Shown here: in pieces, positions 9,800 to 11,951 of the stretch
Numbering within the stretch: position 1 is the first letter of the stretch
How the letters are laid out: each line of letters starts with the position of its first letter
Virus genome (UHGV): UHGV-0119412
Length of the DNA stretch: 30,381 bases
From: a virus
Strand: one strand, 5' to 3'
Notes under the pieces: model-generated
Database searches by the model: none
The model's input: only the letters and a program-made list of their open reading frames with translations
Told to the model about the DNA's origin: nothing
Position numbers and translations under genes: made by a program

Positions 9800-10437
9800 A
9801 ACGGTGCCCCCGTTTGCCCGCCGCTGTCGCCCGGGTGTTTATGGGTGTGGAGTACCTTGCCATTAGACGACAGTGACCCGCCGGTATGTTCGATATTGCC
9901 GCTCATCTTGCCGCCTTTCTGCACCTCAAGCGTCGCCGTCGTTAGCTTATTGGTGCAAATCACCTCCGGGGTGTCGAGGGTGATACTGGTCGAGGCTTTC
10001 ACCAGTACCAGCGGTACGGTTGCGGTGATGGACTCCGATGCCGTCACGTCGGCCGTTTTTATGCCGCTGACCGTCAGCGCGCCGGTTTCGGGCTCGTACT
10101 CAATGACCGCACCATCAGGGAAAGCCACATGCCACGCATCCGCCGAGGCCGACGGGGCGGGGTTATCGTCGGAGAAAATACCCGGCAGCACGAAAGCGGT
10201 ATCAAGCTCGCCACCGATTGCCAGCAGCAGAACCTGCTCACCGACCGAGGGAGCCCACCACGTCCGCGAACGACCGGCGCGGGTGGTCAGCCAGTTCAGC
10301 CATGTAGTCTGGATCCCGCCGCTTTGTACGCGGCACAGCCCCTGCACAGTATCGACCTCAGTCACCACGCCTGAGCGGATGAGGTTGCGAATGGCACGTG
10401 CTAACTCTTGAATGGTGTTTAATGTGTTCATGAACAA
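9796..10437 (-). CDS. V: Baseplate spike/assembly protein gpV
   Basis: 213-aa ORF at the head of the V-W-J-I-fibre operon; P2 gpV is 211 aa. Confidence 0.8.
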   Translation of the reverse strand: MFMNTLNTIQELARAIRNLIRSGVVTEVDTVQGLCRVQSGGIQTTWLNWLTTRAGRSRTWWAPSVGEQVLLLAIGGELDTAFVLPGIFSDDNPAPSASADAWHVAFPDGAVIEYEPETGALTVSGIKTADVTASESITATVPLVLVKASTSITLDTPEVICTNKLTTATLEVQKGGKMSGNIEHTGGSLSSNGKVLHTHKHPGDSGGQTGAPL

Positions 10438-10568
10438 AGAATGCCGATTGTTAATGCCAAGAGCAAAACGATTCAGCTGTATGCTCTTCTACACAATTCG
10501 GTGTGCATTCATGTATCATTTGAGTGTTGAATCATTCGAAAATCACACAAAACATATGGCAGGTAGTA

Positions 10569-11405
10569 ATGAAAAGAACTTCATCTTTTAGGCGTACAAT
10601 AAGCAATATGAAATATATTATAGGTATCTTTTTTTTATACTCCGGGCTTATAGTAGGGTTGTCTGTTTATAATGATAACTACAACTCAAAATTCATGGAG
10701 AATTTTCTTGTTAATGCAAATTCTTCAATTTTAGACTTTCTTGTTTTGGGTGTGATTCTTTACTATTTTGAAAATAAAAGGCAAAATAAAGATGCTATTC
10801 ACGAACTAATTGAAGATCTTGAAAATCTGGCAAAGCATTCTTCTGCAGAACTGAATATTATGAAGATAAAAATCATACGTCAGTTAAATGCCAAAGGAAT
10901 ATATAACATTCAAGTTCCAAGGATTGAACTTGATAAAATGTCCACTATCAAATATTTACATTTTAAAGACGCTGACTTAACCGGCTTGAATATGAGTGAA
11001 TCATACATTAGAGATTGTTCTTTCGATAATTGCACAATTCAAGCTCTAAATATTACAGGCAATAGAGTTAAGAGTGTTAAATTCAAAAACTGCAAGCTAA
11101 GAAATATTAAGGCATTTAATACATGTTTTCAAAATGTTACTTTCGAAAACTGCAGTTTTGAAGGGGGGTATTTTACAGATAGCGAAATGAAAAGCTGCAT
11201 ATTAAAAGGATGTGATTTTAAATCCGTTACTTATGAAGGGGCTAACATGCGGAATGCAAATCTATTAAATTCAATTAACATTAGCGTTAAAGAACTTGTT
11301 AAAGCAAAAAACATAGATTATTTAATTTGTGATGAGCAAATTAAAAATGAAATAAGAAAGGAAAACCCAGCAATAAAAATATCTAGAGGAATAATACGAG
11401 GTTAG
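10569..11405 (+). CDS. Membrane-anchored pentapeptide-repeat protein (cargo/moron)
   Basis: Plus-strand ORF on the strand opposite to its neighbours, clearly AT-rich. Start chosen at the ATG at 10569, preceded by AGGT (the track ORF begins at a GTG at 10524). N-terminal hydrophobic helix (YIIGIFFLYSGLIVGLSVY) then tandem A(D/N)LxX-type pentapeptide repeats (DADLTGLNMSESYIRDCSFDNCTIQALNITGNRVKSVKFKNCKLRNIKAFNTCFQNVTFENCSFEGGYF...). Confidence 0.7.
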   Translation: MKRTSSFRRTISNMKYIIGIFFLYSGLIVGLSVYNDNYNSKFMENFLVNANSSILDFLVLGVILYYFENKRQNKDAIHELIEDLENLAKHSSAELNIMKIKIIRQLNAKGIYNIQVPRIELDKMSTIKYLHFKDADLTGLNMSESYIRDCSFDNCTIQALNITGNRVKSVKFKNCKLRNIKAFNTCFQNVTFENCSFEGGYFTDSEMKSCILKGCDFKSVTYEGANMRNANLLNSINISVKELVKAKNIDYLICDEQIKNEIRKENPAIKISRGIIRG

Positions 11406-11460
11406 GGAATCGAACCCAACTCAGTGGGCACGCCCACCTAGACACCAGTCCACCTCTATC
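11404..11460 (-). other. tRNA-like fragment (T-loop-like GGGTTCGATTCCC on the minus strand), not an intact tRNA
   Basis: The plus strand reads GGGAATCGAACCCAAC, the reverse complement of a canonical tRNA T-arm box; no complete cloverleaf could be folded by hand. Confidence 0.2.
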
Positions 11461-11486
11461 GCTGAGATATATAATAATTCTCAGCG
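11460..11486. other. Perfect 8-bp stem hairpin (CGCTGAGA / TCTCAGCG) with an 11-nt AT loop
   Basis: Seen directly, between the cargo gene and the gpS stop; no flanking T-run, so not a classic intrinsic terminator. Confidence 0.3.
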
Positions 11487-11495
11487 AATCCAAAG

Positions 11496-11951
11496 TCAAT
11501 GGCGTTGACATAAAGCATCCATAATTAAACTCTCAACTTTTTGTAAGTCTGATGAAGAGTATCCGAGCAACGGTCGCGCCTCGTACTGCACATCCCGGCT
11601 GTTGCGGTTTGGCCGGTCTTTTAGGCCGTACTGATGCACCCGCGCCATGCGCTGCACCTTGCCGGTAAACTCCACCACCGCCGCACTGTCGCTGCCTTTG
11701 GCTTTCATAAAGCGACTGGTGCGCAGTTTGGCGAACATTTCACGTTTAATCCGACCTTTCTTGCTCCGCACCGGCTGGCGCTTTCGTGCCGCATACGGGG
11801 TGCCGTCGGGTGCCTGCTGGCGCTTGATACGCTGTTGCTGACTGGTACGCAGCTTTTTCGCAACCTCAGCCGCCATTTGCCGACGTGCCGCCGGTGACAG
11901 GCTGGCAATCAGACCGGCAAGGCGTTCCTGCAGCGCGGTTAATTCACTCAT
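11496..11951 (-). CDS. S: Tail completion protein gpS
   Basis: 151-aa ORF; P2 gpS is 150 aa; overlaps the R gene end as in P2. Confidence 0.8.
   Translation of the reverse strand: MSELTALQERLAGLIASLSPAARRQMAAEVAKKLRTSQQQRIKRQQAPDGTPYAARKRQPVRSKKGRIKREMFAKLRTSRFMKAKGSDSAAVVEFTGKVQRMARVHQYGLKDRPNRNSRDVQYEARPLLGYSSSDLQKVESLIMDALCQRH

What the first reader, a model, noticed from the sequence alone, without database searches (positions are those of the whole stretch)
11404..11486. tRNA-like remnant and strong hairpin at the 3' boundary of the pentapeptide moron
Immediately after the cargo stop codon, the minus strand carries GGGTTCGATTCCC, a T-arm-like box, but I could not fold a complete tRNA. 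It is followed by a perfect 8-bp stem hairpin with an AT loop and no T-run. This looks like a scar of acquisition, for example from a tRNA-associated element, or a structured RNA or recombination site.
Basis: seen in the sequence. Interest (0 to 1): 0.4.

Follow-up and report, generated by a model that had tools for sequence, protein, structure and literature searches.

The report
Conserved tRNA-shaped small RNA gene
The "tRNA scar" after the prophage cargo gene is most likely a conserved small RNA gene with its own promoter, folding like a tRNA without an anticodon loop, that travels with a membrane pentapeptide-repeat gene between phages, satellites and islands.

Summary
GGGTTCGATTCCC lies on the minus strand at 11405-11417. 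A 9-bp hairpin lies at 11459-11487 and has no T-run.

The "scar" reading does not hold. All 25 retrieved loci carrying an enterobacterial homologue (>=52% identity) of the pentapeptide-repeat gene also carry the same ~130-nt module. These loci sit at 186/P2-type S-V junctions, in a P4-like satellite and in umuDC-linked islands.

On the minus strand the module reads as follows:
- a sigma70-like promoter: TTGACT, a 17-nt spacer, then nAnnnT. Upstream of the transcribed block, TTGAC and these two -10 positions are essentially the only invariant bases;
- about 66 nt that fold as a cloverleaf: a 5-bp closing helix, a mini D-like hairpin with an invariant UGG, a strongly covarying middle hairpin with a tetraloop, and an invariant T arm.

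The 20-nt box is 95% conserved, against 55-74% for the coding sequence, even though three different stop/frame arrangements read across it. It is not a tRNA: ARAGORN finds none, Rfam gives ~14 bits, there is no anticodon loop, and there is no Rfam family.

The window's hairpin is specific to this cassette subtype, and it overlaps the promoter spacer and -10.

Best reading (about 0.5): an undescribed tRNA-like RNA gene, antisense to the 3' end of the cargo mRNA. Transcription and function are untested.

The parts
11494..11499 (-). Putative -35 hexamer TTGACT of the small-RNA promoter. It contains the TGA stop codon of gene S (11496-11498).
   Evidence: TTGAC is invariant in the 17-sequence alignment A2. 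That includes the non-P2 contexts, where no long ORF ends in it. In L003 the correctly spaced hexamer is the upstream TTGACA, which is separate from the S stop. The promoter scan gives 10/12 matches here and finds the homologous site in L009, L155 and L147.
11471..11476 (-). Putative -10 hexamer TATTAT, 17 nt downstream of the -35.
   Evidence: Only positions 2 (A) and 6 (T) of this hexamer are invariant across the 17 variants, and the spacer length is constant while its sequence varies freely. The scan tool reports it.
11396..11464 (-). tRNA-shaped RNA. The 5' end near 11464 is inferred from the promoter spacing; the 3' end is unknown.
   Evidence: Covariance model R1, built from 16 variants, matches 11393-11463(-) at 89 bits (a training sequence), and this is the only match in the window. 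The structure is supported by pair counts. Single-sequence minimum-energy folds of L009 and L151 give the same cloverleaf.
11452..11456 (-). 5' strand of the closing (acceptor-like) helix, GAGGU. It pairs with ACCUC at 11398-11402.
   Evidence: 91% of cells are paired. There is one compensatory G-C to A-U change, in L151. By hand alignment, the L003-type sequences keep 5 bp through a bulged U and a U-A to C-G change.
11398..11402 (-). 3' strand of the closing helix, ACCUC. It overlaps the last two codons of the pentapeptide gene on the other strand.
11441..11450 (-). Mini D-like hairpin GAC-UGGU-GUC. UGG and GUC are invariant.
   Evidence: 94% of cells are paired. The variation includes two A-U to G-U changes, which pair only on the minus strand.
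11424..11437 (-). Middle hairpin GUGGG(CGUG)CCCAC, in the anticodon-arm position but with a tetraloop.
   Evidence: 4 of 5 pairs show double (compensatory) changes and 96% of cells are paired. Stem variants are GUGAG/CUCAC, GUGGA/UCCAC and GGAAGAU/AUCUUUC.
11403..11419 (-). T-arm-like hairpin UUGGG-UUCGAUU-CCCUA.
   Evidence: GGTTCGATTCCC is invariant in 16/16 variants. The stem is perfect (UAGGG/CCCUA) in L009, L011 and L147. The outer two pairs are poorly kept overall.
11459..11487 (.). It overlaps the promoter spacer, the -10 and the predicted start site.
   Evidence: Free energy -14.2/-13.3 kcal/mol, z = -5.3/-3.5. It is kept in window-type copies with single changes (L134, L143). Other subtypes have different hairpins at this place, and 12 of 17 variants have a stem of about 7 bp or more. 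No T-run follows.
10569..11405 (+). Cargo gene: a 278-aa protein with N-terminal transmembrane helices and a C-terminal pentapeptide-repeat beta-helix. It is convergent with the RNA, and its stop codon lies inside the RNA gene.
   Evidence: Pfam Pentapeptide_4, E = 1.6e-16. AlphaFold2 model with mean pLDDT 86. Fold matches are to generic pentapeptide proteins only. NCBI annotation of the identical locus.
11499..11562 (-). The last ~21 codons of gene S, encoded by low-GC DNA (33%) that changes with the cargo type. The true right-hand recombination boundary of the module lies near 11562/11563.
   Evidence: The S C-terminal tails differ with cargo type, while the upstream part of S is near-identical.

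Best explanation
**What it is.** The box and its surroundings (about 11396-11499, minus strand) form a small non-coding RNA gene that belongs to the pentapeptide-repeat cassette.

**Proposed mechanism, with the status of each step:**
1. A sigma70-type promoter drives transcription on the minus strand: -35 TTGACT at 11499-11494, a 17-nt spacer, -10 TATTAT at 11476-11471. Transcription would start near 11464. The sequence signal is shown; its activity is inferred.
2. The transcript folds as a tRNA-like cloverleaf:
   - a 5-bp closing helix;
   - a 3-bp D-like hairpin whose loop keeps an invariant UGG;
   - a 5-9-bp middle hairpin capped by a tetraloop instead of an anticodon loop;
   - a 4-nt linker;
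   - a T arm with the canonical UUCGAUU loop.

   The fold is shown by covariation.
3. The RNA is convergent with the cargo gene and fully complementary to the last codons, stop codon and 3' UTR of its mRNA. I infer that it acts in cis as an antisense regulator (antitoxin-like) of the membrane pentapeptide protein.
4. I further infer that the tRNA-like elbow gives stability or recruits tRNA-processing enzymes such as RNase P and 3' trimming enzymes, which would define the RNA's ends.

**The hairpin at 11459-11487.** It is a subtype-specific stem between the convergent S and cargo genes. It most likely stabilises or terminates the incoming transcripts, and it overlaps the RNA promoter. It is not part of the tRNA-like fold.
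For: **Always with the gene.** The element was present in all 25 retrieved loci that carry an enterobacterial homologue (>=52% identity).
- 14 loci were found through the gene or protein.
- 11 were found through a DNA pattern alone, and all 11 have the gene next to it.
- Contexts are 186/P2-type S-V junctions, a P4-like satellite (L156) and umuDC/Abi-linked islands (L009, L155).
- It is absent from the empty junction of phage 186, from two other cargo types and from a 27%-identical Paenibacillus homologue, even with filters off.

**Selection at the nucleotide level.**
- The box 11397-11416 has 0.95 mean pairwise identity, against 0.55-0.74 in the coding sequence.
- Homologues read across it in three ways: TAG inside the box; CAG or AAG read-through to a later TAG; and a different frame ending at a TGA in the middle hairpin.

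**Promoter.**
- In the 44 nt upstream of the conserved RNA block, essentially the only invariant columns among 17 variants are TTGAC, position 2 (A) and position 6 (T) of a hexamer exactly 17 nt downstream, and one C just before the block.
- The spacer sequence varies freely, and the module length from the box to the -35 stays at 107-115 nt.
- The scan tool picks the same site in four divergent variants at 9-10/12 matches.

**Fold.**
- 89.5% of cells are paired, against 43-54% when the partners are slid.
- 6 pairs carry double changes, a value reached by 0 of 500 shuffles.
- RNAalifold recovers the D-like and middle hairpins on its own.
- Single-sequence minimum-energy folds of L009(-) and the most divergent L151(-) give the four-way cloverleaf.

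**Strand.**
- There are 12 G-U cells on the minus strand and 3 on the plus strand.
- The T-loop consensus and the CUUG and GAAA tetraloops read correctly only on the minus strand.

**tRNA shape.** Model R1, built only from these elements, aligns end to end with real tRNAs; Brachyspira tRNA-Leu scores 33.8 bits. The 19-nt pattern matches real tRNA 3' ends, mainly tRNA-Leu.
Against: - There is no expression data, so transcription, RNA ends and function are all inferred.
- Promoter-like matches are as frequent as chance in this A/T-rich DNA (5 found, 4.8 expected). Several variants have weak -10 hexamers (CAATCT, CACTCT, CACCCT).
- No intrinsic terminator follows the RNA.
- The folds are no more stable than those of shuffled sequences (z = -0.3 to -1.1 on the minus strand).
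- The closing helix has only 5 bp, the D-like and T stems show little or no covariation, and the outer T-stem pairs are often broken.
- RNAalifold prefers an alternative hairpin, GGUU...AACC, that is paired in 100% of cells and excludes both the T arm and the closing helix.
- The 16 variants fall into about 5 lineages, so cell counts overstate the number of independent events.
- The protein is 278 aa, unlike classical type I toxins.
- In many variants the conserved 5' segment can instead pair with downstream sequence on the plus strand as a terminator-like hairpin.
Confidence: 0.5

Rival explanations
1. **tRNA-like punctuation signal, with no promoter of its own.** The cloverleaf would be made only as part of read-through transcripts from the convergent upstream gene (S in 186-like phages; umuC, an Abi gene or the primase elsewhere). 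RNase P and 3' processing enzymes would then cut it. That would define the 3' end of the incoming mRNA and shield the cargo gene from antisense read-through, as with mascRNA/MALAT1 or mitochondrial tRNA punctuation (from background knowledge, not tested here).
For: - It rests on the same fold, strand and conservation evidence as the best explanation.
- In most contexts a gene converges on the cassette on the minus strand.
- No terminator with a T-run separates S from the element.
Against: - It does not explain the invariant TTGAC-17-nAnnnT signal or the constant spacing to the RNA.
- In L011 the next called gene downstream of the cassette's 3' end lies on the same strand as the cargo gene, so no gene converges on the cassette there.
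Confidence: 0.15
2. **Plus-strand 3' UTR.** The conserved helices would act in the cargo mRNA as 3'-end stabilisers or a terminator, and the resemblance to a T arm on the other strand would be incidental.
For: - The plus-strand folds of the window and L009 also give the four-way junction, with slightly better z-scores (-1.5 and -2.3).
- Most variants have a further hairpin just downstream. In some it is followed by a U-rich tail, and the tool calls a terminator in L147.
Against: - Wobble pairs favour the minus strand, 12 cells against 3.
- The invariant loop reads as the T-loop consensus only on the minus strand.
- In many homologues the element lies inside the ORF rather than in a UTR.
- It does not explain the promoter-like invariants.
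Confidence: 0.15
3. **Decaying tRNA remnant or acquisition scar.** A piece of a tRNA gene, or an att duplication from a tRNA-inserted element, would have been carried along with the cargo and have no present function.
For: - The 19-nt box pattern matches real tRNA 3' ends, mostly tRNA-Leu.
- The overall shape is that of a tRNA.
- No tRNA finder accepts it.
Against: - It is more conserved than the adjacent coding sequence.
- Its helices covary.
- It is kept in every context and lineage.
- It spans a whole cloverleaf rather than only a 3' half, as att duplications do.
- BLAST similarity to phage tRNAs stops at 25 nt with E >= 0.2.
- There is no second copy and no flanking integrase.
Confidence: 0.08
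4. **DNA-level site.** The conserved box and inverted repeats would be a recombination or binding site that mobilises the cassette.
For: - The cassette occurs in several unrelated contexts.
- The element sits at one end of it.
Against: - No recombinase is linked to it, and there is no matching repeat at the other end of the cassette (one search shows unrelated upstream regions).
- At 186-type junctions the exchange points lie inside S and near the V promoter, which fits homologous recombination.
- The wobble-pair asymmetry points to RNA, not duplex DNA.
Confidence: 0.05

Closest known systems
tRNA-like non-coding RNAs (the tRNA-like domain of tmRNA, mascRNA, the tRNA-like module of bacterial Y-RNA-like YrlA); comparison from background knowledge
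   Same: It has a cloverleaf or L-shape mimic with a canonical T loop (UUCGAUU) and a closing acceptor-like helix, but no decoding anticodon loop. The weak Rfam local matches are exactly to the T arms of tRNA-Sec, tmRNA and mascRNA.
   Different: - No Rfam family reaches its threshold.
- The closing helix has 5 bp, the D-like arm is a 3-bp stem with a 4-nt loop, and the middle arm ends in a tetraloop.
- It is encoded antisense to the 3' end of a protein gene in a mobile cassette.
3'-overlapping cis-antisense RNAs of type I toxin-antitoxin loci (txpA/RatA, bsrG/SR4, fst/RNA II); from background knowledge
   Same: A small RNA gene with its own promoter converges on a membrane-protein gene and is complementary to the 3' end of its mRNA. 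The pair sits in prophage or mobile DNA and is inherited as a two-part unit.
   Different: - The protein is 278 aa with a pentapeptide beta-helix, not a peptide of under 60 aa.
- No toxicity is shown.
- A tRNA-like fold is not a feature of known type I antitoxins.
tRNA genes and tRNA 3'-end duplications at island or prophage borders
   Same: The sequence GGTTCGATTCCCTNNCCTC is a real tRNA 3' end in many organisms, mostly tRNA-Leu.
   Different: - No anticodon loop.
- No flanking integrase.
- No partner repeat.
- The element is conserved under selection and covers the 5' half of the cloverleaf as well.
[quoted passage not shown]
   Same: The cassette sits in a variable slot between conserved genes (S and V). 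Other occupants include a protein matching the PADLOC family PD-T4-7. One copy lies beside a P4-type primase. [quoted passage not shown]
   Different: Those papers, as far as I read them, describe protein systems. They do not describe this RNA or this pentapeptide family. The Hailong system they mention has a pentapeptide-containing channel, HalA, but there is no specific similarity to it.

Membership tests
tRNA (Rfam RF00005/RF01852; ARAGORN) | Accepted by a tRNA finder or covariance model at its threshold | tested here: not met
   ARAGORN finds 0 genes in the window. The best Rfam matches are tRNA-Sec at 14.1 and 14.2 bits, against a gathering score of 47.
tRNA (Rfam RF00005/RF01852; ARAGORN) | Anticodon arm with a 7-nt loop | tested here: not met
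   The middle hairpin ends in a 3-6-nt loop in all 16 variants (CGUG, CUUG, CUUA, GAAA, UAC and others).
tRNA (Rfam RF00005/RF01852; ARAGORN) | T arm with the loop consensus UUCRANU closed by G53-C61 | tested here: met
   GGUUCGAUUCC is invariant in 16/16 variants. The stem has 3-5 bp and is perfect in the L009 type.
tRNA (Rfam RF00005/RF01852; ARAGORN) | 7-bp acceptor stem with a discriminator base and CCA (encoded or added) | tested here: not met
   Only 5 bp are conserved (GAGGU/ACCUC). No CCA is encoded, and the bases beyond the helix do not pair consistently.
Sigma70 promoter | A -35-like and a -10-like hexamer 16-18 nt apart, with A at position 2 and T at position 6 of the -10 | tested here: met
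   TTGACT-17-TATTAT scores 10/12. The same signal sits at the same place in all 17 variants. Activity cannot be tested here.
Intrinsic (Rho-independent) terminator (for the hairpin at 11459-11487) | A G+C-rich stem followed directly by a U tract | tested here: not met
   The stem is present, but no T-run follows on either strand and the scan tool does not report it.
Type I toxin-antitoxin system | A small (<60 aa) hydrophobic toxin | tested here: not met
   The protein is 278 aa, with transmembrane helices plus a pentapeptide beta-helix.
Type I toxin-antitoxin system | An antisense RNA that base-pairs with the toxin mRNA and neutralises it | not testable with these tools
   Complementarity follows from the convergent overlap seen in the sequence. 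Transcription and neutralisation need experiments.
att-site or tRNA 3' duplication left by an integrase | A partner repeat at the other end of the inserted DNA, and a linked integrase | tested here: not met
   There is a single copy in the window by pattern search and by covariance model. No integrase is among the called genes of any cassette locus.
Hailong defence system (HalA/HalB) | A HalB nucleotidyltransferase gene next to a HalA channel gene | tested here: not met
   No second protein gene lies in the cassette. HalA (9nyi) matches only over generic repeats at E = 1e-3 and is not among the top 50 fold matches.

The most novel reading that the evidence does not exclude
The tRNA-shaped RNA and the membrane pentapeptide-repeat protein could form a new two-part RNA-protein module, either a toxin-antitoxin pair or an abortive-infection system. 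It would be carried in phage and satellite cargo hotspots.

A short-lived tRNA mimic would keep the membrane effector silent, either by antisense pairing or by direct binding. Phage-induced transcription shut-off, or an attack on tRNAs, would remove the RNA and release the effector.
Probability: 0.12. Interest if true: 0.8.

Novelty: new variant of a known kind. Interest (0 to 1): 0.58.

Why it matters
If the RNA is expressed, this would be an undescribed bacterial RNA family: a tRNA mimic that has lost its anticodon loop and is fixed antisense to the 3' end of a mobile membrane-protein gene.

It would give a compact, testable example of how cargo cassettes in P2/186-type prophages and P4-like satellites carry their own RNA regulator. 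It would also add a case of tRNA-derived architecture reused for regulation.

There is a practical point for annotation as well. The apparent "moron" here is a two-gene unit, and its right-hand edge lies inside tail gene S rather than at the hairpin.

Tried and rejected
- **A real or relaxed tRNA or tmRNA.** ARAGORN finds none. Rfam E-value scans on three variants give only ~14-bit tRNA-Sec matches and T-arm-only local matches.
- **A recent fragment of a phage tRNA.** blastn against 50,697 phage records matches only 25 nt of the T-arm region, at E >= 0.2.
- **A donor tRNA among species-representative genomes.**
  - The protein-based scan found no relatives.
  - The 19-nt pattern scan hit unrelated real tRNAs, mostly tRNA-Leu of haloarchaea and Brachyspira, and about half of the listed loci had no tRNA at all.
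- **An integron attC-like site.** ACCCAAC fits RYYYAAC in the window, but it is not conserved in other variants (CCCTAC) and no GTTRRRY partner is present. Rejected by eye.
- **The protein as a HalA (Hailong) homologue gated by nucleic acid.** The only match is over generic pentapeptide repeats. Fold search returns Qnr, MfpA and AlbG-type proteins, and HalA is not among the top 50 listed matches.
- **PADLOC.** Only a weak hit of the N-terminal membrane region to an RT-associated SLATT model, E = 0.0027. This is a hint, not a finding.
- **The 42-aa minus-strand ORF at 11383-11511.** It crosses the variable promoter spacer, where other variants have indels, so I treat it as not conserved.
- **A plus-strand TATAAT in the hairpin loop (11470-11475).** It has no acceptable -35 and is not conserved.
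- **Literature searches.** Searches on pentapeptide/P2 hotspots, tRNA-like antisense RNAs and Hailong found no description of this RNA. The Hailong paper itself is not held in the library.
Full report
**Setting**

The window is a 186-type (Eganvirus, P2 family) prophage of E. coli.
- It is 100% identical to E. coli N56 over 10300-11700 and 99.5% identical to phage vB_EcoM-613R3.
- The late genes run on the minus strand: tail-completion gene S at 11951-11496 and baseplate spike gene V at 10437-9796.
- Between them lies A/T-rich DNA (27-32% GC). It encodes, on the plus strand, a 278-aa protein (10569-11405) with N-terminal membrane helices and a C-terminal pentapeptide-repeat beta-helix.
- Phage 186 itself has an empty 69-nt S-V junction. 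Other E. coli prophages carry unrelated genes at this spot. One of those genes matches the PADLOC defence family PD-T4-7.

- GGGTTCGATTCCC is on the minus strand at 11405-11417 and abuts the TAG stop. The T-arm consensus GGTTCGANTCC occurs once in the window, and 3 of 100 shuffles had a match.
- No tRNA is found. Rfam gives only tRNA-Sec at 14.1 bits.
- The hairpin (11460-11467 pairing with 11479-11486, plus one more U-A pair) folds at -14.2 kcal/mol on the plus strand and -13.3 on the minus strand, with z-scores of -5.3 and -3.5. It has no T-run on either side.

**The box is not private to this window**

I collected homologous cassettes in three ways.
- BLAST against E. coli genomes.
- Protein homologues and the contigs that encode them: 28 clusters at >=52% identity, all with named sources in Enterobacterales.
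- Protein-independent DNA pattern scans of viral and metagenomic contigs.

All 25 loci carry the same element, and all 11 pattern-found copies lie next to the gene. The contexts are:
- the S-V junction of 186-type prophages in E. coli, Klebsiella, Edwardsiella, Yersinia, Salmonella and Enterobacter;
- a locus beside a P4-type primase (L156);
- umuDC- or Abi-linked islands (L009, L155).

The element is absent from phage 186, from two other cargo types and from a 27%-identical Paenibacillus homologue, even with filters off.

**Conservation is at the nucleotide level**

- Across 16 distinct variants, the 20 nt at 11397-11416 have 0.95 mean pairwise identity. That is the highest value in the 3' half of the cassette, where the coding sequence runs at 0.55-0.74.
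- The reading frame over the box differs between homologues:
  - TAG inside the box (window, L003);
  - CAG or AAG read-through ending ...GIEPNSVGKPT;
  - another frame ending ...EVRESNPTQ at a TGA inside the next hairpin.

  Protein constraint therefore cannot explain the conservation.

**A promoter-like signal on the minus strand**

I aligned 17 variants from beyond the S stop to beyond the box.
- Upstream of the conserved RNA block, essentially the only invariant columns are TTGAC, an A and a T, plus one C just before the block.
- That A and T are positions 2 and 6 of a hexamer exactly 17 nt downstream of TTGAC(T/A). The hexamers seen are TATTAT, TAGAAT, GATAAT, GATGAT, CATTAT, CACTAT, CAATCT and others.
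- The spacer sequence is free but its length is fixed. The distance from the box to the -35 complement is 107-115 nt in every variant.
- The scan tool reports this site as the best in the region of the window (10/12) and finds the homologous site in L009, L155 and L147.
- In the window and in most S-V copies, the TGA stop of S sits inside the -35 hexamer. TTGAC is equally conserved where no ORF ends in it (L009, L011, L147, L155, L156). In L003 the correctly spaced TTGACA is separate from the S stop.
- Caveat: single promoter-like matches are as common as chance in this A/T-rich DNA. The argument rests on positional conservation, not on the match itself.

**A tRNA-shaped fold**

Downstream of the promoter, the minus strand reads, in the window:

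AGCG AUAGAGGU G GAC-UGGU-GUC UAG GUGGG-CGUG-CCCAC UGAG UUGGG-UUCGAUU-CCCUA ACCUCG UAUU

I counted pairs for this cloverleaf on a 16-sequence alignment.
- 89.5% of cells are paired, against 43-54% for slid controls.
- 6 pairs have changes on both sides, and 14 cells do so. Both values were reached by 0 of 500 shuffles.
- **Middle hairpin:** the strongest helix, with 4 of 5 pairs covarying and 96% of cells paired. Stems include GUGGG/CCCAC, GUGAG/CUCAC, GUGGA/UCCAC and, in the L003 group, an unrelated A/U-rich 7-9-bp stem.
- **Closing helix:** 91% of cells paired, with one clean compensatory change in L151 (GAGG/CCUC to GAAG/CUUC). By hand alignment, the L003 group shows a second such change.
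- **D-like hairpin:** keeps UGG and GUC invariant.
- **T loop and its three G-C pairs:** invariant, so they carry no information on pairing. The two outer T-stem pairs are often broken.

Other lines of evidence on the fold:
- RNAalifold recovers the D-like and middle hairpins. For the T region it prefers an alternative GGUU/AACC hairpin, which is fully paired but shows only wobble variation.
- Single-sequence folds of L009(-) and of the most divergent L151(-) give the four-way cloverleaf unaided.
- Stability is not above that of shuffled sequences.

**Which strand**

- Wobble pairs favour the minus strand, 12 cells against 3. This corresponds to roughly six independent events against two or three.
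- The T-loop consensus and the CUUG and GAAA tetraloops read correctly only on the minus strand.
- The promoter-like signal is also on the minus strand.

**How tRNA-like it is**

- A covariance model built only from these elements aligns end to end with real tRNAs. Brachyspira tRNA-Leu scores 33.8 bits, and other tRNAs score 15-29 bits. Many of those loci had been fetched through a pattern containing the box, which inflates the top scores.
- The 19-nt pattern matches real tRNA 3' ends, mainly class II tRNA-Leu.
- By primary sequence, similarity to phage tRNAs stops at 25 nt.
- The anticodon loop, a 7-bp acceptor stem and the family thresholds are all missing.
- I therefore call it tRNA-shaped, not a tRNA. 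It may have descended from a tRNA gene long ago; that is possible but unproven.

**The hairpin**

- On the minus strand its arms lie in the promoter spacer and around the predicted start site, and its loop holds the -10. It would form in transcripts arriving from S, 9 nt after the stop codon, and in the cargo mRNA. It would not form in the small RNA itself.
- It is kept in window-type copies with single changes (L134, L143).
- Other subtypes have different hairpins at this place. They often use the conserved segment UAGACACCAGUCNACCUCUAU as the 5' arm on the plus strand, and some have U-rich tails; the tool calls a terminator in L147. 12 of 17 variants have a stem of about 7 bp or more.
- Unrelated cargos at this junction also place a strong hairpin before the S stop (L002 at -27.6 kcal/mol, L004 at -15.3).
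- The simplest reading is a transcript-end stem between convergent genes. It is not a canonical terminator.

**Module boundary**

- The last ~21 codons of S (11499-11562) are 33% GC, against 61% for the rest of S.
- This tail differs with each cargo type, while upstream S is nearly identical.
- The exchange point therefore lies inside S, which fits homologous recombination between related phages. It is not at the hairpin.

**What it most likely does**

Shown:
- a conserved module made of a promoter-like signal and a structured RNA on the minus strand;
- its strict linkage to the gene;
- full complementarity to the 3' end of the gene's mRNA.

Inferred:
- that it is transcribed;
- that it acts in cis as an antisense regulator, as in the 3'-overlapping type I toxin-antitoxin loci;
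- that the tRNA-like elbow serves stability or processing.

Rivals are a processing or insulator signal without its own promoter, a plus-strand 3' UTR structure, a decaying tRNA scar, and a DNA site. I rate the transcribed tRNA-like RNA gene at about 0.5 and the specific antisense or antitoxin role lower.

**The protein gives no further lead**

- It is a membrane-anchored pentapeptide beta-helix.
- It has no specific link to the Hailong channel HalA.
- Its N-terminus gives only a weak hit to a SLATT-type model.

**Novelty**

No Rfam family matches, and the literature searches found no description of this RNA. I class it as a new variant of known kinds (tRNA-like RNAs and cis-antisense RNAs), pending proof that it is expressed.

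Noticed in passing
window 11499-11562 (minus strand, 3' end of gene S): The last ~21 codons of S are low-GC (33% against 61% for the rest of S) and differ with each cargo type, while upstream S is near-identical. The cargo exchange point lies inside S. In most copies the TGA stop of S is supplied by the -35 hexamer of the RNA promoter.
   Followed up: partly
L139 2724-2770 (also L159): The 14-nt unit TAGGGAATCGAGGT is repeated (three copies visible within the stretch read) just before the box. On the RNA strand this repeats ...CGAUUCCCUAACCU and extends the C-terminus of the pentapeptide ORF. It is probably slippage between the two TCGAT motifs.
   Followed up: no
L132 238-322 and L138 2372-2456 (viral contigs): An ~85-nt tRNA-like sequence has the acceptor GGGGCUG...CAGCUCCA (G3-U70, the same as the tmRNA/tRNA-Ala acceptor), a proper T arm and a long central arm. 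ARAGORN does not call it. It may be a phage-encoded tRNA or tmRNA mimic.
   Followed up: no
window 10478-10495 (minus strand): TGTGTAGAAGAGCATACA is a TGT-N12-ACA dyad upstream of V. From memory, this is the form of the Ogr/B activator site of P2-type late promoters. The cargo therefore sits between the S stop and the V late promoter.
   Followed up: no
window 10490-10519 (plus strand): A promoter-like site, TACACA-18-TATCAT, lies ~50 nt upstream of the pentapeptide start codon. It is conserved in the closest cassette types (L006, L008) and is probably the cargo gene's own promoter.
   Followed up: no
L002 621-1484; L004 503-1288; L157 1292-2239: Other occupants of the same S-V slot are a protein matching the PADLOC family PD-T4-7 (E = 5e-9), a UPF0489-domain protein, and an FRG-domain gene placed beside the pentapeptide cassette. 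The S-V junction behaves as a cargo/defence hotspot.
   Followed up: partly
window 10569-10780 (protein residues 6-69): The N-terminal membrane region gives a weak PADLOC hit to an RT-associated SLATT model (E = 0.0027). This hints that the protein may be a membrane effector.
   Followed up: no
L144 20-91 (viral contig, minus strand): A 72-nt sequence matches the cassette RNA model at 29 bits, including GACUGGUGUC and the T arm, but has a different closing helix and a longer middle arm. ARAGORN does not call it. It lies at a contig end, so no pentapeptide gene can be checked.
   Followed up: no
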